Shown: in pieces, positions 18,829-39,543 of the stretch
How the letters are laid out: every line of letters begins with the position of its first letter
Position numbering within the stretch: the stretch's first letter is position 1
IMG/VR virus record: IMGVR_UViG_3300032335_000499
Strand: one strand, 5' to 3'
DNA: 64,000 bases
DNA from: a virus
Lineage: Duplodnaviria > Heunggongvirae > Uroviricota > Caudoviricetes
The notes under the pieces: model-generated
Told to the model about the DNA's origin: nothing
Databases searched by the model: none
Seen by the model: only the letters and a program-made list of their open reading frames with translations
Made by a program: the position numbers and the translations under genes

Positions 18829-19298
18829 ATTTTTCTTTAAAACTATTTTGAAGAACACACTATAAACTCTACTGCGTAATATGCCGAAACGCCCATAGAG
18901 TCAGTCTTTCGGTCCACACTGTAGTGTATTCATCAAAATAGTCTAATATTATTTAGTCTATTTATAACCCACCCTGAGATTACGGGCTTGTAGCGAGAGT
19001 CTTTGGTCATTACCGAATCCCTTGCGAGGACCGTTCTACCGTTATCCACTAGGGCTTTTTACAGTCACCTAGTAACTCTCAATGCTGCCTTTTTTAGAGT
19101 CTGGCGTTTGACTCGTCGCATATGTCTACTCGACCATCTATCTTTCGCTAGCCTTGCGGGCTATTCAAGGTCGCTAAACCCTTACGCTTTCTTTCCGATC
19201 AATCAGTTCAGCCTTGCGAGCCTTCCTGAACCACATTCCCTTGCGAGTGAGGTATTAAGCATCTTTAAACATATACCGGAGCAGACTTTCGCTTTTGT

Positions 19299-19369
19299 AG
19301 TGCAATACAGGAGTTGAACCTATATCGATTCCTTATTATGGAATTGACTTACCATTAGTCAAATTGCGA
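19299..19369 (-). tRNA. degenerate tRNA-like element (intact D, anticodon and T arms; loop ATAATAA, acceptor with 2 mismatches) - possible pseudo-tRNA
   Basis: GACT/AGTC D-stem, ATTCC/GGAAT anticodon stem, ATAGG-TTCAACT-CCTGT T-arm; no CCA. Confidence 0.25.
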
Positions 19370-20194
19370 ACCTACCAAGATGTGCTGCTCCAGTTGCTCC
19401 ATATCTTGTTAGATACAGAATACAACACACCTTATGTCTTTTGCCTTGCGGGCTACTCAACCATACTTCACGAATCCAGCACAGCACCCTCAGGTCTATA
19501 CTTTCTTCGCTTGTATTGCTATCTTGCCTTTCCTTGCGAGGTCAGACTCAATAACTACCTGTTAACTTTCAATATTCATCAGTTTAGCTGTACTTCGTGA
19601 GGGCGCTAACCCTCTTAACTCCTCAGCGTTGCCCTGGAGCCTATCCCTTTCGGGACGTTCGTACCTGACTTACTACCTACCGCCTTTCTACGGACGGGCC
19701 TTTCGGCTAGTTCAGGCTTGCATAGATGGACCATTGCTGGCGCAAGTTTATAGGAAACCTTGCTTTGACAGAGATTACTCCCTGCTACCCTAGTGAGGCT
19801 ATGCCCCCAATTTCTATTCAATTTTCAAAGAACAAAGACAATCTCTTGTCTTGATTTACTCATTATATCAAAGTTCGTAACGTTTGTCAAGAACTATTTC
19901 GCCTATTTGCAAAAAAAGTTTGGAAGAGAAAAAGTAAGTGATAGACAATGCAATACACAGCGACCCGACCGTACGGTCAAAGTCTACGGACACTAAACAC
20001 TACACAATCTGCAAAAATAACGTATCTCTAAGCGGCAACTCACAAATCTGAATAAAGCTTAGTTCATGCTATTATGGAGCGTTTCAAGCGCCTGATCGGT
20101 ACAGTATCTCCGATACCAGGGTGTCTACTCTCGTCTCTCTTTCTCTTCCTGGTAGCGTCCTCAAGATGGAGTCAGAAGGAACGCTACCAAACTC

Positions 20195-21020: not shown

Positions 21021-22238
21021 TTACCCCTTGACACAAACTACCTGCTTCAACGTATGAACGATTTCTACAAGGTCAGACTGTGCAGCCATAACTGCATCAA
21101 TGTCCTTGTACGCATTTGGCGTTTCGTCAATAACGTCTGCGTCCTTGCGGCACTCAACCCCTGCCGTAGCAGCGATATGGTCCTCAATAGTGAAACGCTT
21201 CTTCGCTTCGGTACGGCTCATAGAGCGTCCAGCACCGTGTGAACACGAACTGAACGATTCACGATTACCCTTGCCGCGAACGATGAATGACTTTGCACCC
21301 ATTGAACCAGGGATGATTCCCAGTTCGTCCTTCTTAGCTGACACTGCACCCTTACGAGTAAGCAGAATGTCTTCACCGAAGTGACGCTCATGCGATACAT
21401 AGTTGTGGTGACAGTTAACTGCCATCATTTCACTATAGAACGGCTTCGTAATTACTGACTTGATAGCAGCAATAGTTGCTTCCATCATCACTTCACGATT
21501 GCTACGAGCAAAACGCTGTGCCCAAGACACTGCTTGCATGTAGTCGTTGAAGTGGTCAGTACCTTCTGCTAGATAGGACAAGTCCATGTCTGGCAGATTG
21601 ATGAACCACTTACGCATATCCTGCTTAGCAAGTTCAATGAAGTAGGAACCGATACGATTACCTACACCACGAGAACCTGAGTGCAACATGATCCAAACAT
21701 AATCATCTTCATCAAGACAAATCTCTACGAAGTGATTGCCGGAACCAAGCGTACCTAAGTGATACGGAGCCCGTTCAGCAGCCTGACTAATCTTAGGATG
21801 CTTTGCTACAATTTCTGAAAGCACAGGTAAATGTGCAACAAACTTAAGTGCAACTGCATTAGAATAATCACTGAATGCACCACGGTCATTCTTGCCACCG
21901 TTATCAGTACGACCATGTGGGACTCGTGCTTCAATCGCAGAGCGAATGCCGAACAGGTTGTCGGGCAAATCTTCTGCACGAAGGTTAGTACGATGAGCCA
22001 TCATGCCGCAACCGATATCAACACCGACTGCTGCTGGAATAATTGCGCCCTTAGTCGGAATAACCGAACCAACAGTCGCACCCATTCCCCAATGAACGTC
22101 AGGCATAATTGCTACGTGCTTGTGAATGAAGGGCATAGCAGCAATATTGTCAAGCTGGGCGCGGGCTTGATCCTCAACGGACACGCCGTCAATCCATGCC
22201 TTAATAAGACCGCCCTTGTTTCCTTGAATTACTTGCAT
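21021..22238 (-). CDS. rtcB: RtcB-family RNA 3'-phosphate/2',3'-cyclic-phosphate ligase
   Basis: 405 aa; conserved RtcB blocks MPDVHWGMGATVGS, GCGMMA, HNYV, CSHGAGRSMSR; AGGAAG RBS. Confidence 0.8.
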   Translation of the reverse strand: MQVIQGNKGGLIKAWIDGVSVEDQARAQLDNIAAMPFIHKHVAIMPDVHWGMGATVGSVIPTKGAIIPAAVGVDIGCGMMAHRTNLRAEDLPDNLFGIRSAIEARVPHGRTDNGGKNDRGAFSDYSNAVALKFVAHLPVLSEIVAKHPKISQAAERAPYHLGTLGSGNHFVEICLDEDDYVWIMLHSGSRGVGNRIGSYFIELAKQDMRKWFINLPDMDLSYLAEGTDHFNDYMQAVSWAQRFARSNREVMMEATIAAIKSVITKPFYSEMMAVNCHHNYVSHERHFGEDILLTRKGAVSAKKDELGIIPGSMGAKSFIVRGKGNRESFSSCSHGAGRSMSRTEAKKRFTIEDHIAATAGVECRKDADVIDETPNAYKDIDAVMAAQSDLVEIVHTLKQVVCVKG

Positions 22239-22302: not shown

Positions 22303-22396
22303 AGGGGGAAAGTAGGGACTTGAACCCTAATAACACCGCTGTCACGGCTGCTCTATGATGACAGTCATAAAGCTGTTACGCACCGTACCCTTCCCC
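22303..22396 (-). tRNA. type-II (long variable arm) tRNA-like gene with non-canonical anticodon arm; identity unresolved
   Basis: 8-bp-capable acceptor GGGGAAGG/CTTTCCCC, T-arm TAGGGTTCAAGTCCCTA, long extra arm; anticodon region TTTATGACTGTCATCATAG folds with 6- or 8-nt loop, not 7. Confidence 0.4.
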
Positions 22397-22402
22397 GTTA
22401 AC

Positions 22403-22478
22403 TGGTAGACGATGTAGGATTCGAACCTACGACCTAGGGATTAAGAGTCCCGCGCTCTACCGACTGAGCTAATCGTCC
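22403..22478 (-). tRNA. tRNA-Lys(CTT)
   Basis: anticodon loop CTCTTAA; T-arm GGTTCGAATCC. Confidence 0.65.
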
Positions 22479-22588: not shown

Positions 22589-22748
22589 AGTATTCATCTA
22601 AACTGTTACAAGCAACAAGAAGCCGGTGCACTTAGCAATTCAGCAATTTACGAAACACCATTCGGGGCTTCTCGTCACTTGATATATTCACTATAACGTA
22701 CTTCTTGTTGATTGTCAACCAAAAAATGACCTTTTTCAAAGATAATTG

Positions 22749-24251
22749 TTACCAGCCCTTAAACCAGTAACTAAGCACTGCCTCAGCAGGCTTGTTTCGG
22801 ATACTAGCTGAAAAATCGTAACAAGTATCATTAAGTGTGTCTTTTTTTCTAGGGTTATCCAAATAGTGATATCCCCAGCTAAATATTCCTTTTATGATCC
22901 CTGAACCATCCGACCTTTGCTCATTGACAATTTCAGCAGCAGATTGATAAATGTCAGCTTGCACCTGATAGTCTCTTGTCTTATTGTTAAATTCAGAGCA
23001 ACGTAACCCAGACTCTATATAATCACTTGAAACCAATCCAGTATGAACTGAAGGCGTTCCGATCATAAGAAGAATAGGAACCTTTGCAGAAGAAATCGAT
23101 GCAATATGTTTCTTAATGTCTTTAGTGAGTTTAGTGCGTGATTGGGCAGCATGTAGTGTTTCGTTATTATCAGGAATGATTGGATTATAGAGACTCAACC
23201 CAATCTCATCAAAAAGATCAATAAAAGCGGTTCGCTTATTAACATCAGAAATCCCAAGCAAGCCATTATATGAACCGTTGGTCATAGAAAAATAAGATAT
23301 TTTTCCAGTAAACCCAGCCTCCCTGATAGCTTTGATAAGTTCAATCCATCTAGAATTTCCCTTATTTACCATGTAGTCCATATTAAAACCAATTACAAGT
23401 CTTGTTGCACCAGCTTGTTGTGCTAAAGCTGCTCTATCAACTAGTATCCTCTTATATTCACTAAACCACCTATCCCAGAAGGGGTCATTATCAGAAAGTT
23501 GACTGATGGCAGAATAGAACTTTGGAACGTCCCATGGATCATTTCCGAGAGTATCTCCGGGATAGATTCCCATCATAACTGTAAAATCCATACCCCGTGA
23601 TCTGGCTAAGTTACCCATATCCAAAATCACTTGATTAGCTGGAAAATATTTACCGTACAACTCAACTGACCGAGAATTAACATTCATTGATTTAATGAAT
23701 GCAGAATCAGCATAAACAACATTATTTCCACCAATGCTCTTTATTCTGTCAAAGGTAGTGGGGAAATATCCTCCATTGTAATAATCCATCAGCCAACCGC
23801 CAGCATCGTGCGGAACAATTGCTTTTGTAAAGTTTGGCTGTCTATTAATCGTATTGGCTTTGTACAAGCCGAGTTGTATCGGCGTGCTATCGTGTGATGT
23901 GTATGGGTACCAAGTTGGTTGATACCCTAATTTGTTCACGGAAAGCTGAGAGTATTCGCCGGTAGACTTCGGCGTTTCAACATTGACTGTTTCTTGAGTT
24001 AGACTTGCAATAGCTGACGTAACCGATGCTGGATGAGAGACTGTTGACAATCTTTCATATGTCTGTATATCTACAGGTGTTGTCTGAGGAACAGCAGGAG
24101 CTGGAGTAGGCAGCGCAACTGATGTCGTTGTTGGTATTTGTACAAAATTTGAACTAGTAGAAGACGTATCGCCGCCGCAACCACTGAGTGCTAATACTCC
24201 AGCAGCCGCCGCCATCATCAAAGTTGTTTTGTTCATACACGCTACTTTCAT
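22749..24251 (-). CDS. large secreted lipoprotein (start moved; lipobox LALSGC), possible polysaccharide-active enzyme
   Basis: Signal peptide plus lipobox; Thr/Pro-rich linker then ~420-aa globular domain; track N-terminus LVTHFAIVKYKL is translation of promoter cassette. Confidence 0.45.
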   Translation of the reverse strand: MKVACMNKTTLMMAAAAGVLALSGCGGDTSSTSSNFVQIPTTTSVALPTPAPAVPQTTPVDIQTYERLSTVSHPASVTSAIASLTQETVNVETPKSTGEYSQLSVNKLGYQPTWYPYTSHDSTPIQLGLYKANTINRQPNFTKAIVPHDAGGWLMDYYNGGYFPTTFDRIKSIGGNNVVYADSAFIKSMNVNSRSVELYGKYFPANQVILDMGNLARSRGMDFTVMMGIYPGDTLGNDPWDVPKFYSAISQLSDNDPFWDRWFSEYKRILVDRAALAQQAGATRLVIGFNMDYMVNKGNSRWIELIKAIREAGFTGKISYFSMTNGSYNGLLGISDVNKRTAFIDLFDEIGLSLYNPIIPDNNETLHAAQSRTKLTKDIKKHIASISSAKVPILLMIGTPSVHTGLVSSDYIESGLRCSEFNNKTRDYQVQADIYQSAAEIVNEQRSDGSGIIKGIFSWGYHYLDNPRKKDTLNDTCYDFSASIRNKPAEAVLSYWFKGW

Positions 24252-24474: not shown

Positions 24475-24556
24475 TGGAGCACCGAGTAGGAATCGAACCT
24501 ACTTCACTTGCGTAGCGGATTTGCAGTCCACCGCATTCCCAATCTGCCATCGGTGC
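24475..24556 (-). tRNA. tRNA-Cys(GCA), unusually long (12-nt) variable loop
   Basis: anticodon stem GTGGA/TCCGC loop CTGCAAA; T-arm GTAGGTTCGATTCCTAC. Confidence 0.6.
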
Positions 24557-25895: not shown

Positions 25896-26624
25896 TTATT
25901 TCTCTACGAATGCTCTCTCAAGAACATAATCGCCGGGCTCTCGCAACGAACCTTCTGTCATTCCGTTATTCTTGCACCACTCTGCAACTTCATGATTGAA
26001 GTCAAGATTGCCGCAAATCATAATCTTATCCTTAGTAGGGTCAATCTGCAATGTATCGCCTAGTTGTGCTGTGATACGCTTGCCACCTTCTCCGGTTACA
26101 ATAGGTATATAGTTCAGCACAGGCTTAACCATTTCTTCTAAATCGTCGCCTACGAATCCAGTTGACAGCAAATCATAGTACGCCAAATCATCACGACTAC
26201 GAACACTATGAACAATATGAATCTTTTCCCATGTTTCAAGCGTTTCAACATCACGAATCAAACTCATAAACGGAGCAAGACCGGTGCCAGTAGCTAACAG
26301 ATACAATTCGCCGCCCTTGTTCAGAGCATCGTTGCGTAGCGTACCAGTTGTCTTAGGATTCAATACTACTTCGTCACCTACTTGAATATGCTGTAGTTTG
26401 CTTGTAAGCTGACCATCTGGAATCTTAATGCTCAAGATTTCAAGTTCATCTGCCCAAGGAGGACTGACTACGCTATACGCTCTCAACACATTCTTACCAT
26501 CAATGTTAAGCCCGCACATAGCAAACTCGCCTGCGTTAAACTTGAAAGTTTGACTACGAGTGGTCTTAAAACTAAATGTTCGGTCACTCCAATGCTGGAC
26601 CCATGTAACTTTTTCAGTAATCAT
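25896..26624 (-). CDS. fpr: ferredoxin/flavodoxin-NADP+ reductase (Fpr family)
   Basis: Collinear with E. coli Fpr: RAYS FAD-binding motif, LLATGTGLAPF NAD(P)-binding motif. Confidence 0.7.
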   Translation of the reverse strand: MITEKVTWVQHWSDRTFSFKTTRSQTFKFNAGEFAMCGLNIDGKNVLRAYSVVSPPWADELEILSIKIPDGQLTSKLQHIQVGDEVVLNPKTTGTLRNDALNKGGELYLLATGTGLAPFMSLIRDVETLETWEKIHIVHSVRSRDDLAYYDLLSTGFVGDDLEEMVKPVLNYIPIVTGEGGKRITAQLGDTLQIDPTKDKIMICGNLDFNHEVAEWCKNNGMTEGSLREPGDYVLERAFVEK

Positions 26625-27028
26625 TATATACCTAAATGTTGTTTGGCGTTTTCAATATAGCCAATAATTCTTTCTTTGCCTGCTGGATTCATGGAGTGAA
26701 CAATGTACGGAGGAAACTTCTTGTTCTTTTCGGCACAGTAATCTACTAGCCATTTAGCGCAATCGTATCCAGTCTTTTCAGAACCATAGTCTACGATTGT
26801 CTCTAGCTGTTTCACTGGATCACTTTCGTTTTCTTTAAGCATAGCAGCATAGTGGTCATCGGCTAAGTCATGGTCAAAGCATACGAAACCCGGAACACCG
26901 CTAAGCATAATGTGCTTAACAAATGCATTGTAGTTTCGTACAGTAAAAATCATTTCATCACGAGGAAACATTTCCCATGTCACATCGTCTGGATTTCGAA
27001 CATCGTCAAGAAATAGTACGTATGACAT
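26624..27028 (-). CDS. small receiver-like protein resembling the cyclic-phosphate-processing REC-like (cREC) domain found next to RNA-repair genes
   Basis: Motifs VLFLDDVR, FDHDL, GYDCAKWL, IVHSMNPAG; start moved to MSYVLF (track extension is tRNA-Ser read-through); assignment from memory of motif pattern, not searched. Confidence 0.4.
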   Translation of the reverse strand: MSYVLFLDDVRNPDDVTWEMFPRDEMIFTVRNYNAFVKHIMLSGVPGFVCFDHDLADDHYAAMLKENESDPVKQLETIVDYGSEKTGYDCAKWLVDYCAEKNKKFPPYIVHSMNPAGKERIIGYIENAKQHLGI

Positions 27029-27046
27029 TATGAGCCTTTCTAATGC

Positions 27047-27136
27047 TGGAGGAAGCGGTGGGATTCGAACCCACGGTACTCTTTCAAGTACGCTGGTTTT
27101 CAAGACCAGATCATTAAACCGCTCTGACACGCTTCC
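27047..27136 (-). tRNA. tRNA-Ser(TGA)
   Basis: acceptor GGAAGCG/CGCTTCC; anticodon loop CTTGAAA; long variable arm. Confidence 0.7.
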
Positions 27137-27893: not shown

Positions 27894-27968
27894 TGGTACT
27901 CCCGGAGGGACTCGAACCCCCAACCAAATCCTTATGAGGGATCGGCTCTACCATTGAGCTACAGGAGT
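27894..27968 (-). tRNA. tRNA with CAT anticodon, copy 3
   Basis: acceptor ACTCCTG/CGGGAGT; anticodon loop CTCATAA. Confidence 0.65.
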
Positions 27969-31593: not shown

Positions 31594-31685
31594 TGGTACT
31601 CCTGCTCGGATTCGAACCGAGACCGATCCCTAATCTGGGCTTCGGGATATAAATCCGACCGCTCTAACCATTAAGCTACAGGAGT
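31594..31685 (-). tRNA. tRNA-like gene with ~17-nt expansion of the anticodon region (possible TAT anticodon, tiny intron, or pseudo-tRNA); acceptor identical to CAT tRNA at 27894..27968
   Basis: ACTCCTG/CAGGAGT acceptor, GCTT..GAGC D-arm, perfect CTCGG-TTCGAAT-CCGAG T-arm, 38 nt between D- and T-arms. Confidence 0.35.
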
Positions 31686-32881: not shown

Positions 32882-33508
32882 CTATTTTATACCTGGATCA
32901 ATCAAACCTAATTGACTGAATGCCCAAGCTCTTTCATTGCATCTATTACAAGTGCCACATGGTGTATCAATATCATAAACACAGCTATGCGTCAATGTAA
33001 ATAGCTTTTCCAATCCTAACTGAATAATTAGCTGCACTACATGTGCTTTGGTTAGGTCTTTTAGTGGATAGTTGAACATTTCAGAATTTACAGGTACATA
33101 TGGTTTAGGTACATTATGCAATGCATGTTCTTCCAATGTCTGTATTATTCCTATATAGATCCTATTACGATTAGTTTTATATAACTCACGCATGCCGGCT
33201 GCTACTTGTAATTCACTATCTATTTCATCTATATCAAGTTTAGTAGCATACTGTTGCTCAATACCCAAACTCTCATGAACATAGTCAATGACAGGTTGAG
33301 CATATCGTGATGAACCATCGTTCCTAATTATAGTATAAGGTATAACGCTATATCTATCATCAGATAATGTCAGCTTCCTTATCAAATAATACAGCAATGC
33401 ACTATCTAACCCACCACTAACTAACACTCCTATTCTTCTATGGAGCGTTAATTTTACTTTTACCGGTCTAAGGTCACCATTAATATTTGATTCTAATCTG
33501 ATAGCCAT
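32882..33508 (-). CDS. QueC-like PP-loop ATPase (7-cyano-7-deazaguanine synthase family) with C-terminal Cys4 zinc site
   Basis: LVSGGLDSALL PP-loop plus C-terminal HSCVYDIDTPCGTCNRCNERAW resembling QueC CxxC...C zinc ribbon. Confidence 0.5.
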   Translation of the reverse strand: MAIRLESNINGDLRPVKVKLTLHRRIGVLVSGGLDSALLYYLIRKLTLSDDRYSVIPYTIIRNDGSSRYAQPVIDYVHESLGIEQQYATKLDIDEIDSELQVAAGMRELYKTNRNRIYIGIIQTLEEHALHNVPKPYVPVNSEMFNYPLKDLTKAHVVQLIIQLGLEKLFTLTHSCVYDIDTPCGTCNRCNERAWAFSQLGLIDPGIK

Positions 33509-35189: not shown

Positions 35190-35196
35190 ATAAAAC

Positions 35197-35274
35197 TGGG
35201 GTGAAAGACGGGACTCGAACCCGCGACATTCGGCATCACAAGCCGACGCTCTAACCAACTGAGCTACAATCACC
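35197..35274 (-). tRNA. tRNA-His(GTG) with G-1:C73
   Basis: anticodon stem TCGGC/GCCGA loop TTGTGAT; extra 5' G pairing with discriminator C. Confidence 0.65.
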
Positions 35275-39138: not shown

Positions 39139-39543
39139 TTAAAAATCTACATTATGGTGTTGCCAAATCTTATCAGTGCCGCCTAAATGACCCCAATCGC
39201 TATCAACAACCATTTTGCTACTAATACCGCCTCTTGGCCTAAACTTGATTTCAAGTCGCATTCTGAATGGGCTGTATGCTTCCATTAGATGCTTATACAT
39301 TACATCAATTGCTCGTTCATAACTAATAATAGTATCTCTATATTGTAGCAGATATTCCTTCAAACTCTTTAGTTCAATCGTCTTTTCATTACCGTGAAAC
39401 CAAATCTTAATATGTCCAAAATCAGGCTGATTCTTTACTCCAAGAAAAGTGAATTCTGGAATATCAATCTGTTGTTCATATCCGTTTGCTGCATTTGGCA
39501 AACTAGCTAATGTGTTTTCTATATTCTTCCAAAGTTTTGGCAT
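39139..39543 (-). CDS. hypothetical protein (134 aa)
   Basis: ORF only. Confidence 0.4.
   Translation of the reverse strand: MPKLWKNIENTLASLPNAANGYEQQIDIPEFTFLGVKNQPDFGHIKIWFHGNEKTIELKSLKEYLLQYRDTIISYERAIDVMYKHLMEAYSPFRMRLEIKFRPRGGISSKMVVDSDWGHLGGTDKIWQHHNVDF

What the first reader, a model, noticed from the sequence alone, without database searches (positions are those of the whole stretch)
22303..22396. Type-II tRNA-like gene with a non-7-nt anticodon loop and a possible 8-bp acceptor
It has a clean T-arm (TAGGG-TTCAAGT-CCCTA), a long variable arm and an acceptor that pairs as 8 bp (GGGGAAGG / CTTTCCCC). The anticodon region TTTATGACTGTCATCATAG only folds into a stem with a 6-nt (CTGTCA) or 8-nt (ACTGTCAT) loop, and no CCA is encoded. 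Possibilities are a selenocysteine-like or frameshift/suppressor tRNA, an otherwise unusual decoder, or a pseudogene. All 20 canonical specificities are already supplied elsewhere in the island, so this one is surplus to standard decoding.
Basis: seen in the sequence. Interest (0 to 1): 0.6.

Follow-up and report, generated by a model that had tools for sequence, protein, structure and literature searches.

The report
Conserved non-decoding tRNA-like phage RNA
A jumbo-phage tRNA gene cluster contains a small, evolutionarily conserved RNA gene that folds like a tRNA but has an over-long "anticodon" stem, a 6-base loop and no CCA end, so it is probably a tRNA look-alike with a non-translational job rather than a selenocysteine tRNA, a suppressor or a dead gene.

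Summary
The structural observation is real. Window 22303-22396 (minus strand) folds into a cloverleaf with an 8-bp acceptor, a miniature D hairpin, a 9-bp "anticodon" stem capped by a 6-nt loop (CUGUCA), a 5-bp variable arm and a canonical T arm, with no encoded CCA. One supporting claim is wrong: the island supplies 19 specificities, not 20, because tRNA-Tyr is absent.

I found four further distinct homologs in uncultivated freshwater phages. Across the five, 98% of proposed pairs hold, and 6 of 31 pairs change on both sides, in the D, long, variable and T stems. The 6-nt loop length, the CUGYCA loop sequence and the acceptor are conserved. The element is as conserved as the adjacent tRNA-Lys, while its flanks are unalignable. 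It is therefore not a decaying pseudogene.

It fails the tRNA and tRNA-Sec covariance models and the defining features of Sec, allo-tRNA, Tyr and His tRNAs. It alone among the stand-alone tRNA genes lacks CCA (35 of 35 others have it). It is sporadic: absent from about 0.9 Mb of related loci, including phages with 98-100% identical RtcB.

Best reading: a new family of non-decoding tRNA mimics carried as an accessory module of phage tRNA arrays, next to tRNA-repair genes. Its function is inferred, not shown.

The parts
22303..22396 (-). The tRNA-like RNA gene: 8-bp acceptor reading 22396..22305 plus a 2-nt tail CU
   Evidence: ARAGORN tRNA-???. Cloverleaf MFE with z = -3.56. Covariance-model family of 5 members. 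Covariation in four helices.
22389..22396 (-). Acceptor 5' strand GGGGAAGG. It pairs with 22305-22312 (CUUUCCCC) and can also be read as G-1 plus a 7-bp stem.
   Evidence: All 8 pairs are invariant in all 5 members.
22377..22387 (-). Miniature D hairpin UACG-GUG-CGUA (4 bp, 3-nt loop)
   Evidence: Two pairs change on both sides (U-A<->C-G and G-C<->A-U); one A.G mismatch in L122.
22350..22373 (-). 'Anticodon' arm: a 9-bp stem (GCUUUAUGA/UCAUAGAGC) capped by the 6-nt loop CUGUCA at 22359-22364
   Evidence: 97.8% of cells are paired, and the two loop-proximal pairs change on both sides. The loop is 6 nt in all 5 members, CUGUCA or CUGCCA.
22335..22348 (-). Variable arm GCCGU-GACA-GCGGU. The segment UGACAG is the exact reverse complement of the 6-nt loop.
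   Evidence: One pair changes on both sides in L122. The loop/variable-loop complementarity holds in 4 of 5 members with one co-varying change, but only 44/500 in the shuffle control.
22313..22329 (-). T arm UAGGG-UUCAAGU-CCCUA
   Evidence: One pair changes on both sides (G-C<->A-U in L122). L116 has an A.C intermediate, and L122 has G at T-loop position 55.
22305..22312 (-). Acceptor 3' strand CUUUCCCC, followed by CU (22303-22304). No CCA.
   Evidence: 35 of 37 ARAGORN calls in the window end in CCA. The only exceptions are this element and the tRNA-like module inside GOLLD.
22397..22402 (-). 6-nt spacer GUUAAC between tRNA-Lys(CUU) and the element
   Evidence: Same length and type as other tRNA-tRNA spacers in the island. 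RUUAAC is conserved in 4 of 5 members.
22403..22478 (-). tRNA-Lys(CUU), immediately upstream and probably co-transcribed
   Evidence: ARAGORN; Rfam tRNA 72.6 bits. It precedes the element in the window, L116 and L108, and lies about 400 nt upstream in L112.
22690..22718 (-). Sigma-70-like promoter TTGACA-17-TATAGT (11 of 12), the likely start of the unit tRNA-Lys, element, rtcB
   Evidence: Consensus scan only. A terminator-like hairpin lies at 22748-22771 just upstream.
21021..22238 (-). rtcB (RNA 3'-phosphate ligase), 66 nt downstream of the element. It is context, not a conserved partner.
   Evidence: ORF; PF01139. Relatives with 92-100% identical RtcB lack the element.

Best explanation
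**What it is.** It is a genuine, selectively maintained RNA gene of about 92-94 nt: a tRNA mimic that travels as an accessory module of phage tRNA arrays.

**Shown.**
- It folds as a five-way cloverleaf: an invariant 8-bp acceptor stacked on a canonical 5-bp T arm, a tiny D hairpin, a 9-bp stem capped by a conserved 6-nt loop (CUGYCA), and a 5-bp variable arm.
- All four variable helices are kept by compensatory change.
- It sits at tRNA-like spacing within tRNA arrays.
- It never encodes CCA.
- It fails tRNA models.

**Inferred.**
- It is transcribed with the array. In the window this would be from the promoter at 22718-22690, together with tRNA-Lys(CUU) and rtcB.
- It is released by the tRNA-processing enzymes, which recognise the acceptor/T-arm half (RNase P at the 5' end, exonucleases or RNase Z at the 3' end). 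It then accumulates as a stable tRNA-shaped RNA.
- It does not read codons on the ribosome.
- Most likely it works by occupying a tRNA-binding factor, as a decoy or a dedicated adaptor. This would be part of the phage-host conflict over tRNA cleavage and repair that the neighbouring genes (RtcB, cREC, PTH2, mini-HisRS) point to.

**My confidence by step.** Conserved structured RNA gene, about 0.85. Not a standard decoder, about 0.7. Decoy or adaptor mode of action, about 0.3.
For: - **Structure.** Cloverleaf MFE with z = -3.56. It is also the MFE in L112 and L122, and in L116 apart from a T arm weakened by its A.C mismatch.
- **Family.** Five distinct members: the window (= L120), L116, L108 (= L114), L112 and L122.
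- **Covariation.** 98.1% of cells are paired, against 46-54% for slid registers. 6 of 31 pairs change on both sides, across the D, long, variable and T stems, and only 5 of 500 shuffles reach that.
- **Conservation.** The element is 82-97% identical between phages, tRNA-Lys is 85-100%, and the 60-nt flanks are 44-56%.
- **Independent modules.** The tRNA-Lys and element trees disagree, so the two modules reassort.
- **Second lineage.** L122 lies in an unrelated phage background: no marker homolog, and a manA RNA.
- **Against decoding.** Rfam tRNA gives no hit and tRNA-Sec gives 20 bits against a gathering score of 47. ARAGORN ignores 4 of the 5 members. The loop is 6 nt in every member, and the middle 'anticodon' base differs (U or C). 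The stem is 9 bp, whereas reviews list 5-6 bp stems and 7-nt (rarely 8-nt) loops for active tRNAs. No CCA is encoded, against 35 of 35 bona fide tRNAs in the window.
- **Context.** tRNA-like 6-10-nt spacing to neighbouring tRNAs, a promoter-like site, and RNA-repair or tRNA-metabolism neighbours.
Against: - There is no expression, processing or binding data; everything downstream of 'conserved structure' is inference.
- The family has only five sequences in roughly three lineages, so each compensatory change is one or two events.
- The element is dispensable: it is absent from about 0.9 Mb of related loci, including phages with 98-100% identical RtcB.
- A decoy for an anticodon nuclease would be expected to copy a 7-nt target loop, which this does not.
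- A 9-bp stem equals the canonical D-stem plus anticodon-stem stack (4+5), so geometry alone does not forbid ribosomal use.
- A CCA-adding enzyme could supply the missing CCA.
Confidence: 0.5

Rival explanations
1. RNA-processing or punctuation element. The tRNA-shaped fold exists only to recruit RNase P or RNase Z, so that the polycistronic array transcript is cut between tRNA-Lys and the downstream mRNA (rtcB, or the 53-aa ORF and PTH2), or to give that mRNA a stable 5' end.
For: In 4 of 5 members the element lies directly upstream of protein-coding genes, 21-100 nt before rtcB, PTH2 or the 53-aa ORF. No CCA is needed for such a role.
Against: A bona fide tRNA-Lys already sits 6 nt upstream in three members and would provide the cut. 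RNase P needs only the acceptor/T-arm half, yet the D, long and variable stems are also kept by compensatory change, and the 6-nt loop sequence is conserved. In L122 the element is followed by another tRNA, not an ORF. The distance to the start codon is not conserved.
Confidence: 0.15
2. Aminoacylated but non-ribosomal tRNA-like carrier with histidine-type identity. The 8th acceptor pair is read as G-1:C73, CCA is added post-transcriptionally, and host HisRS, or the phage group's anticodon-blind mini-HisRS, charges it. This would serve a non-translational use, or would titrate the synthetase.
For: G-1:C73 geometry is invariant in all 5 members. By established tRNA identity rules, C73 with G-1 is the hallmark of bacterial tRNA-His. 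A 190-aa HisRS catalytic core without an anticodon-binding domain (PF13393; hisS 151 bits) is encoded in this phage group, and in L112 it lies about 600 nt downstream of the element. The 3' acceptor strand resembles that of the window's own tRNA-His (CUUUCCCC versus CUUUCACC).
Against: No CCA is encoded, whereas every real tRNA here encodes it. The mini-HisRS is common in genomes without the element (L146-L153) and was not found in the 64-kb window, so there is no obligate pairing. The mini-HisRS has GGGTY where HisRS has GGGRYD. Nothing about charging was tested.
Confidence: 0.1
3. Decaying tRNA pseudogene, for example a damaged type-II tRNA such as Tyr, Ser or Sec, that hitch-hikes in the array.
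For: It is dispensable and patchy. It lacks CCA. L116, L108 and L122 each carry one stem mismatch, and L122 has G at the near-universal U55. The window lacks tRNA-Tyr while relatives have it.
Against: Six compensatory pair changes lie in four helices, and most of the single-sided stem substitutions are wobble-compatible. Conservation equals that of the functional tRNA next door while the flanks are randomised. It persists in two unrelated phage backgrounds. A one-base deletion cannot make a 9-bp stem. There is no significant similarity to the group's tRNA-Tyr or to any of 151 tRNAs. L124 lacks both Tyr and the element.
Confidence: 0.08
4. A functional but highly unusual decoder: Sec-like, a -1 frameshifting or doublet-reading tRNA, or another recoding adaptor.
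For: The 13-bp (8/5) acceptor branch, long variable arm and compact D arm recall tRNA-Sec, which is the best (weak) Rfam hit. ARAGORN reports a 2-base anticodon. A 9-bp stem could replace the canonical D-stem plus anticodon-stem stack (my geometric reasoning).
Against: It falls below the Sec threshold (20 versus 47 bits). There is no UCA in register, the D arm is 4 bp with a 3-nt loop, and the discriminator is C. The putative anticodon is not conserved (GUC versus GCC), and real tRNA-Asp(GUC) and tRNA-Gly(GCC) are already present. There is no CCA. No precedent for decoding with a 6-nt loop was found.
Confidence: 0.07
5. A DNA-level element: the inverted repeat CTGTCA-N15-TGACAG (CTGCCA...TGGCAG in other members) is a protein-binding or recombination site, and the RNA fold is incidental.
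For: The two 6-mers are exact reverse complements in 4 of 5 members and change together once. The module moves between contexts.
Against: It does not explain compensatory changes in four separate helices, nor the canonical T loop. The repeat is broken in L112. The shuffle control is weak, at 44/500.
Confidence: 0.03

Closest known systems
Bacterial selenocysteine tRNA (selC, Rfam RF01852)
   Same: 13-bp acceptor/T-arm branch in 8/5 configuration, a long variable arm, a compact D arm with a GGUG-like loop, and an anticodon stem longer than 5 bp. It is the best, though sub-threshold, Rfam match.
   Different: The D arm is 4 bp with a 3-nt loop, not 6 bp with a 4-nt loop. The stem is 9 bp and the loop 6 nt, against 5-6 bp and 7 nt. 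There is no UCA anticodon. The discriminator is C in 4 of 5 members, not G73. It scores 20 bits against a gathering score of 47. No CCA is encoded, unlike every real tRNA in this window.
allo-tRNAs and 8/4 tRNA-Ser/His of bacteria and phages (Mukai et al. 2017, PMC5389517)
   Same: Non-canonical cloverleaves with an 8-bp or longer acceptor and a long variable arm. They are found in metagenomes and in phage tRNA clusters, and some are proposed to be regulatory rather than decoding.
   Different: allo-tRNAs are defined by a 12-bp branch (8/4 or 9/3), whereas this element has 13 bp (8/5). The paper shows tested allo-tRNAs to be translationally active, whereas this element has a 6-nt loop on a 9-bp stem.
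Bacterial tRNA-His (G-1:C73)
   Same: An extra eighth acceptor pair formed by G-1 and C73, which is invariant in all members. The 3' acceptor strand resembles the window's own tRNA-His.
   Different: It is type II, with a long variable arm. It has no GUG anticodon and no CCA, and the D and anticodon arms are unrelated.
tRNA-like non-coding RNAs: bacterial Y RNA YrlA (RF02553), mascRNA, plant-virus tRNA-like structures, and the stable RNAs C and D of the phage T4 tRNA cluster (the last from my own knowledge, not checked here)
   Same: They work alike in principle. All are RNAs that borrow the acceptor/T-arm shape so that tRNA enzymes process or bind them, without decoding. YrlA is linked to rtcB operons, and the T4 RNAs are co-transcribed with phage tRNAs.
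   Different: No sequence or model match: there is no YrlA hit on the element, and mascRNA and Tymo_TLS score only 13-17 bits. YrlA closes its acceptor with a loop and carries a Ro-binding helix. Viral TLSs use pseudoknotted acceptors at mRNA 3' ends. This element is a free-standing five-arm cloverleaf.
Phage tRNAs that evade anticodon nucleases (van den Berg 2023, PMC10264068; Burman 2024, PMC11464382; Azam 2024, PMC11555353; known to me from their titles and abstracts)
   Same: Encoded in phage tRNA arrays, and interpreted in the setting of host tRNA-cleaving defences and phage RNA repair.
   Different: Those are fully functional decoders with 7-nt loops carrying point changes. This element cannot be assigned an anticodon and lacks CCA.

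Membership tests
Canonical elongator tRNA (Rfam RF00005) | Scores at or above the family gathering score (29 bits) | tested here: not met
   No RF00005 hit at E<=1 in the island scan, where 36 other tRNAs score 41-74 bits. In the 141-nt scan the best clan member is tRNA-Sec at 20.2 bits. No hit at gathering score for the L108, L112, L116 or L122 copies.
Canonical elongator tRNA | 5-bp anticodon stem with a 7-nt loop presenting a 3-nt anticodon | tested here: not met
   9-bp stem and 6-nt loop in all 5 members. ARAGORN reports a 2-base anticodon.
Canonical elongator tRNA of this genome | Genome-encoded 3' CCA | tested here: not met
   35 of 35 bona fide tRNAs have it; the element ends ...CCCC-CU. 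The same holds in all homologs.
Bacterial tRNA-Sec | 8/5 acceptor/T-stem configuration (13 bp) | tested here: met
   8 + 5 bp; the acceptor is invariant, and the T stem has one compensatory change.
Bacterial tRNA-Sec | 6-bp D stem with a 4-nt D loop (the SelA determinant, per PMC7609411) | tested here: not met
   4-bp stem with a 3-nt loop.
Bacterial tRNA-Sec | UCA anticodon in a 7-nt loop, and G73 | tested here: not met
   The loop is CUGUCA or CUGCCA (6 nt). The base after the 8-bp stem is C in 4 members and G only in L122.
Bacterial tRNA-Sec | Rfam RF01852 gathering score (47 bits) | tested here: not met
   20.2 bits, E = 0.051.
Bacterial tRNA-Sec | Accompanying SelA/SelB/SelD machinery and SECIS-containing genes | not tested
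   None was seen among the roughly 50 window ORFs scanned with Pfam. The host and the rest of the genome are unknown.
allo-tRNA (Mukai 2017) | 12-bp acceptor branch in 8/4 or 9/3 configuration | tested here: not met
   The branch is 8/5 = 13 bp. Definition taken from PMC5389517.
Bacterial tRNA-His | G-1 paired with C73 | tested here: met
   The first G and the eighth-pair C are invariant in all members. Whether RNase P leaves G-1 cannot be tested here.
Bacterial tRNA-His | GUG anticodon, type-I (short variable loop) body, CCA end | tested here: not met
   Loop CUGYCA, a 14-nt variable arm, and no CCA.
Bacterial tRNA-Tyr | A73, a GUA anticodon in a 7-nt loop, and homology to the phage group's tRNA-Tyr | tested here: not met
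   C73, with GU only in the window clade. Local alignment to tRNA-Tyr of L123, L125 and L129 scores no more than 23, indistinguishable from other tRNAs at 18-21.
YrlA / bacterial Y RNA | Match to RF02553; Ro-binding helix formed by the 5' and 3' ends; linkage to rsr | tested here: not met
   No YrlA hit on the element at E<=10. Its ends form the acceptor stem. No TROVE protein was seen in the scanned ORFs.
tRNA pseudogene | Neutral decay: stem-breaking substitutions, and divergence like that of the flanking DNA | tested here: not met
   98.1% of cells paired, with 6 compensatory pairs. The element is 82-97% identical against 44-56% for its flanks.
Structured tRNA-like non-coding RNA (functional class, not a curated family) | Conserved tRNA-shaped fold supported by covariation, without decoding features | tested here: met
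   for fold and conservation; for the lack of decoding features. Expression cannot be tested with these tools.

The most novel reading that the evidence does not exclude
The element is the RNA half of a phage-borne, anticodon-independent aminoacylation pair. After RNase P leaves G-1 and CCA is added, the G-1:C73 acceptor is histidylated by HisRS or by the 190-aa anticodon-blind mini-HisRS found in this phage group (adjacent in L112). This would yield a charged tRNA-like molecule that the ribosome cannot use: an aminoacyl donor or a synthetase/defence sponge. The conserved complementarity between its 6-nt loop and its variable loop might let molecules pair with each other. This would be a new class of non-translational aminoacyl-tRNA mimic in viruses.
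Probability: 0.07. Interest if true: 0.8.

Novelty: new variant of a known kind. Interest (0 to 1): 0.5.

Why it matters
Phage tRNA arrays are now read mainly as counter-measures to host tRNA-cleaving defences. A conserved array member that has the shape of a tRNA but cannot be a normal decoder would show that these arrays also carry tRNA mimics, adding a new kind of player to that conflict.

For annotation, it shows that an ARAGORN 'tRNA-???' call is not necessarily junk or a pseudogene. It also supplies a seed alignment and structure (5 sequences) for a family that matches nothing in Rfam 15.

For tRNA biology, it is a natural example of an 8/5 cloverleaf with a 9-bp stem and a 6-nt loop that evolution maintains. 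It could be used to probe what RNase P, CCA-adding enzyme and HisRS accept.

Tried and rejected
1. **Link to RtcB.** The element sits 66 nt upstream of rtcB, but relatives with 92-100% identical RtcB lack it. L028, L032 and L036 show a clean 101-nt indel, and L121 has a different, unstructured 190-nt insert. None of the 80 RtcB loci has the element. I rejected it as an RtcB-specific partner.
2. **Exact-word searches.** The 16-mer from the loop region gave 27 chance hits. The variable-arm 20-mer gave chance hits in a coding region.
3. **Other collections.** The INPHARED phage collection gave only T-arm-sized matches to ordinary tRNAs. Bacterial and archaeal genomes (185k species) gave no member, only two unrelated oddities, L118 and L119.
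4. **L113.** It scores 33.5 bits and ARAGORN calls it '???', but it does not fold as a cloverleaf and comes from a GC-rich organism, so I treated it as unrelated.
5. **Descent from, or replacement of, tRNA-Tyr.** No significant similarity was found, and L124 lacks both.
6. **Loop:variable-loop helix as an alternative fold.** It is 4-8 kcal/mol worse than the cloverleaf in 4 of 5 members. An intramolecular kiss is geometrically implausible for a 9-bp and a 4-5-bp hairpin joined by one nucleotide (my reasoning). I kept it only as an unexplained observation.
7. **Widening the family through a syntenic marker protein.** 31 more neighbourhoods held no new member.
8. **Literature on 6-nt anticodon loops.** Nothing was found. 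The recoding review cites only a few loop-size exceptions and no 6-nt precedent, and its reference list was beyond the held text.
Full report
**1. The observation**

On the minus strand, window 22396->22303 reads GGGGAAGG-G-UACG-GUG-CGUA-ACA-GCUUUAUGA-CUGUCA-UCAUAGAGC-A-GCCGU-GACA-GCGGU-GUUAU-UAGGG-UUCAAGU-CCCUA-CUUUCCCC-CU. ARAGORN calls it 'tRNA-???' with a two-base anticodon (gt) at 22304-22395.

The minimum-free-energy fold is exactly this cloverleaf: -36.6 kcal/mol, z = -3.56, and none of 200 shuffles folds as well. The T arm, the 8-bp acceptor, the long variable arm, the non-7-nt loop and the missing CCA are all real.

Two refinements apply. The stem under the loop is 9 bp long. The 8-nt-loop alternative is unlikely, because the closing pair is C-G in three homologs.

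One claim is wrong. The island does not supply all 20 specificities. ARAGORN (whole window) and Rfam (18-37 kb) find 36 tRNAs for 19 amino acids and no tRNA-Tyr.

**2. It is not a recognisable tRNA**

Rfam's tRNA model hits 36 genes in the island at 41-74 bits but not this one. Scanned alone with lax filters, the best match is tRNA-Sec at 20.2 bits, against a gathering score of 47.

Of 37 ARAGORN calls, 35 end in a genome-encoded CCA. The exceptions are the tRNA-like module inside a GOLLD RNA and this element.

Reviews of non-canonical tRNAs list 5-6-bp anticodon stems and 7-nt (rarely 8-nt) loops for active tRNAs. I found nothing on 6-nt loops.

**3. It is a conserved family, not an accident or a wreck**

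Pattern scans of IMG/VR and JGI/ENA metagenomes, and a look-up of contigs encoding the same RtcB, gave four further distinct homologs:
- L116, nearly identical to the window copy.
- L108, which is the same contig as L114.
- L112.
- L122, the most divergent.

L120 is the window's own genome. A covariance model built from four of these scores members at 97-120 bits and ordinary tRNAs at 33 bits or less.

On the five-sequence alignment the cloverleaf pairs 98.1% of cells, against 46-54% when partners are slid by 1-3 columns. Six of 31 pairs change on both sides: two in the D stem, two at the loop end of the long stem, one in the variable stem and one in the T stem. Only 5 of 500 column shuffles reach that number.

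The acceptor is invariant. The loop is always 6 nt, CUGUCA or CUGCCA.

Between phages the element is 82-97% identical, like the adjacent tRNA-Lys (85-100%). The 60 nt on either side are at background (44-56%), even between the window and L116.

The tRNA-Lys and element trees disagree, so the two modules reassort. L122 belongs to a different phage lineage: it has no homolog of the 187-aa marker protein and it carries a manA RNA.

These are the signatures of a selected, structured RNA gene. The caveat is that five sequences in about three lineages mean each compensatory change is only one or two events.

**4. Context and distribution**

The window comes from a freshwater jumbo-phage group. Homologs of the marker protein lie on contigs of 330-350 kb. 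The tRNA island (18.4-36.3 kb, all minus strand) is interspersed with RNA-repair and tRNA-related genes:
- RtcB at 21021-22238.
- A cREC cyclic-phosphate receiver domain protein at 26624-27130.
- QueC-like and QueF genes.
- An HNH endonuclease.

A near-consensus promoter (TTGACA-17-TATAGT, 22718->22690) follows a terminator-like hairpin and precedes tRNA-Lys(CUU), a 6-nt spacer, the element, and then rtcB after 66 nt. This transcription unit is inferred.

In four members the element occupies the same slot, between tRNA-Lys(CUU) and a variable cluster of RtcB, a 53-aa ORF, PTH2 and a mini-HisRS. In L122 it heads a run of tRNAs, 10 nt before tRNA-Pro, just after a weak promoter-like site.

It is an accessory gene:
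- Relatives with 92-98% identical RtcB join tRNA-Lys directly to the rtcB leader, a clean 101-nt indel.
- L121, with 100% identical RtcB, has an unrelated, unstructured insert instead.
- About 0.9 Mb of related loci hold no further copy.
- Scans of bacterial and archaeal genomes and of deposited phage genomes found none.

**5. What it is not**

- **Selenocysteine tRNA.** Only the 8/5 branch and the long variable arm fit. The D arm, loop, anticodon, discriminator and model score do not.
- **allo-tRNA.** That class is defined by a 12-bp 8/4 or 9/3 branch; this branch is 13 bp.
- **tRNA-Tyr stand-in.** Three element-less relatives carry a normal tRNA-Tyr (A73, CUGUAAA loop, CCA). The element's central region matches it no better than it matches other tRNAs (a score of 23 or less, against 18-21 across 151 tRNAs). 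L124 has neither.
- **Decoder.** The would-be anticodon differs between clades (GUC-like versus GCC-like), and real tRNA-Asp(GUC) and tRNA-Gly(GCC) are present.

**6. How it most likely works**

What is shown is a conserved five-arm tRNA-shaped RNA gene inside tRNA arrays. What I infer is that it is co-transcribed with neighbouring tRNAs and excised by the tRNA-processing enzymes. Those enzymes read the acceptor/T-arm half, which is the one part that is canonical and invariant.

The lower half (9-bp stem, 6-nt loop) and the absent CCA argue that it does not enter translation. I therefore favour a tRNA mimic that acts by binding a tRNA-recognising factor, as a decoy or adaptor in the tRNA damage/repair conflict that its neighbours point to.

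The mode of action is the weakest step, at about 0.3. A 9-bp stem equals the canonical D-stem plus anticodon-stem stack, and a CCA-adding enzyme could supply CCA, so neither decoding nor charging is strictly excluded.

**7. Two leads left open**

*(a) Histidine-type identity.* The 8-bp acceptor can be read as 7 bp plus G-1:C73, the hallmark of bacterial tRNA-His identity (established knowledge). This phage group encodes a 190-aa HisRS catalytic core without an anticodon-binding domain. In L112 it lies about 600 nt downstream of the element. However, it is common in genomes lacking the element and was not found in this window, so the link is only suggestive.

*(b) Loop complementarity.* The 6-nt loop is the exact reverse complement of the variable-loop segment in 4 of 5 members (CUGUCA/UGACAG and CUGCCA/UGGCAG). 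The two change together once, and L112 breaks the pairing. Chance is about 2% per sequence, the shuffle control gives only 44/500, and as an alternative fold it is 4-8 kcal/mol worse in 4 of 5 members. It remains unexplained.

**8. Verdict**

This is a real and conserved member of a previously undescribed small family of phage tRNA-like RNAs, with no match in Rfam 15. It is a new variant of the known kind 'tRNA mimic / non-canonical tRNA'. I score interest at 0.5. It is a clean, testable oddity with covariation support, but the family is small, it is dispensable, and its function is unknown.

Noticed in passing
window 18971-19433 (-); also L108 4347-4779 (-): Full-length GOLLD RNA (RF02032; 203 and 191 bits) inside the tRNA island. 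It encloses a tRNA-like module that ARAGORN calls tRNA-Ile(aat) at 19299-19369, which has no CCA and scores only 41 bits as a tRNA.
   Followed up: partly
window 31594-31685 (-); L125 3064-3154 (+): A 92-nt tRNA with a UAU anticodon and a long variable arm (Rfam tRNA 54.9 bits; A73 and CCA present). It shares its acceptor (ACUCCUG) with the tRNA(CAU) at 27894-27968 and is conserved in a related phage. A type-II-shaped tRNA-Ile(UAU) is unusual, and UAU is the commonest allo-tRNA anticodon in PMC5389517.
   Followed up: partly
window, whole; L123 3673-3758, L125 2971-3056, L129 2475-2561: The window's 36-tRNA island lacks tRNA-Tyr, although three related jumbo phages carry a normal type-II tRNA-Tyr(GUA) in the array. 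L124 also lacks it.
   Followed up: yes
L146 5201-5773 (+) and L147-L153; L112 5772-6344 (-): A 190-aa minimal HisRS-like protein (PF13393; NCBIfam hisS 151 bits). Motif 2 and the RGLSYY motif are intact, GGGTY stands in place of GGGRYD, and there is no anticodon-binding domain. It is encoded next to PTH2 in the tRNA array of this phage group.
   Followed up: partly
window 21021-22238, 26624-27130, 32882-33508, 39139-39543 (all -): A phage-borne RNA-repair and modification gene set within and near the tRNA island: RtcB ligase, a cREC_REC cyclic-phosphate processing receiver domain protein, a QueC-like protein and QueF. PTH2 replaces or joins RtcB in relatives (L108 6555-6968).
   Followed up: partly
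L121 366-545 (+): In a phage with 100% identical RtcB, the slot between tRNA-Lys(CUU) and rtcB holds a different insert of about 190 nt. It ends in a T-arm-like GTAGGTTCGAATCCTAC and contains AUGACAG. It has no Rfam hit and no significant fold (z = 0.44).
   Followed up: partly
L122 4739-4812 (+) and 5675-5844 (+): The unrelated phage contig that carries the fifth family member also encodes a tRNA with a CUA (amber-reading) anticodon, which ARAGORN calls 'tRNA-Pyl', and a manA RNA (RF01745, 67 bits).
   Followed up: no
window 22359-22364 versus 22339-22344 (-): The element's 6-nt loop is the exact reverse complement of its variable-loop segment. The pairing co-varies once across the family and is broken in L112. 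It is unexplained.
   Followed up: yes
window 35196-35274 (-): The phage tRNA-His(GUG) has G-1:C73 but two U.U mismatches in its acceptor stem (positions 5:68 and 6:67). Its 3' acceptor strand, CUUUCACC, differs by one base from the element's CUUUCCCC.
   Followed up: no
L119 2220-2325 (+) (Bacteroidales MAG); L113 4471-4561 (+): Two unrelated curiosities from the pattern scans. L119 is a tRNA frame (normal acceptor, D and T arms) in which two hairpins replace the anticodon loop. L113 is a GC-rich tRNA-like sequence that ARAGORN calls '???' with a 2-base anticodon.
   Followed up: no
window 24475-24556 (-): tRNA-Cys(GCA) is 82 nt long with an enlarged variable region. The same 82-nt form recurs in relatives (L116, L120, L123-L125, L129).
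   Followed up: no
L112 7540-8571 (-): The ORF upstream of tRNA-Lys(CUU) in L112 contains an RNase II/R-type motif (TSPLRRYVDLVNQWQL), which would be another RNA-metabolism gene in the array. I recognised the motif by eye and did not scan the ORF.
   Followed up: no
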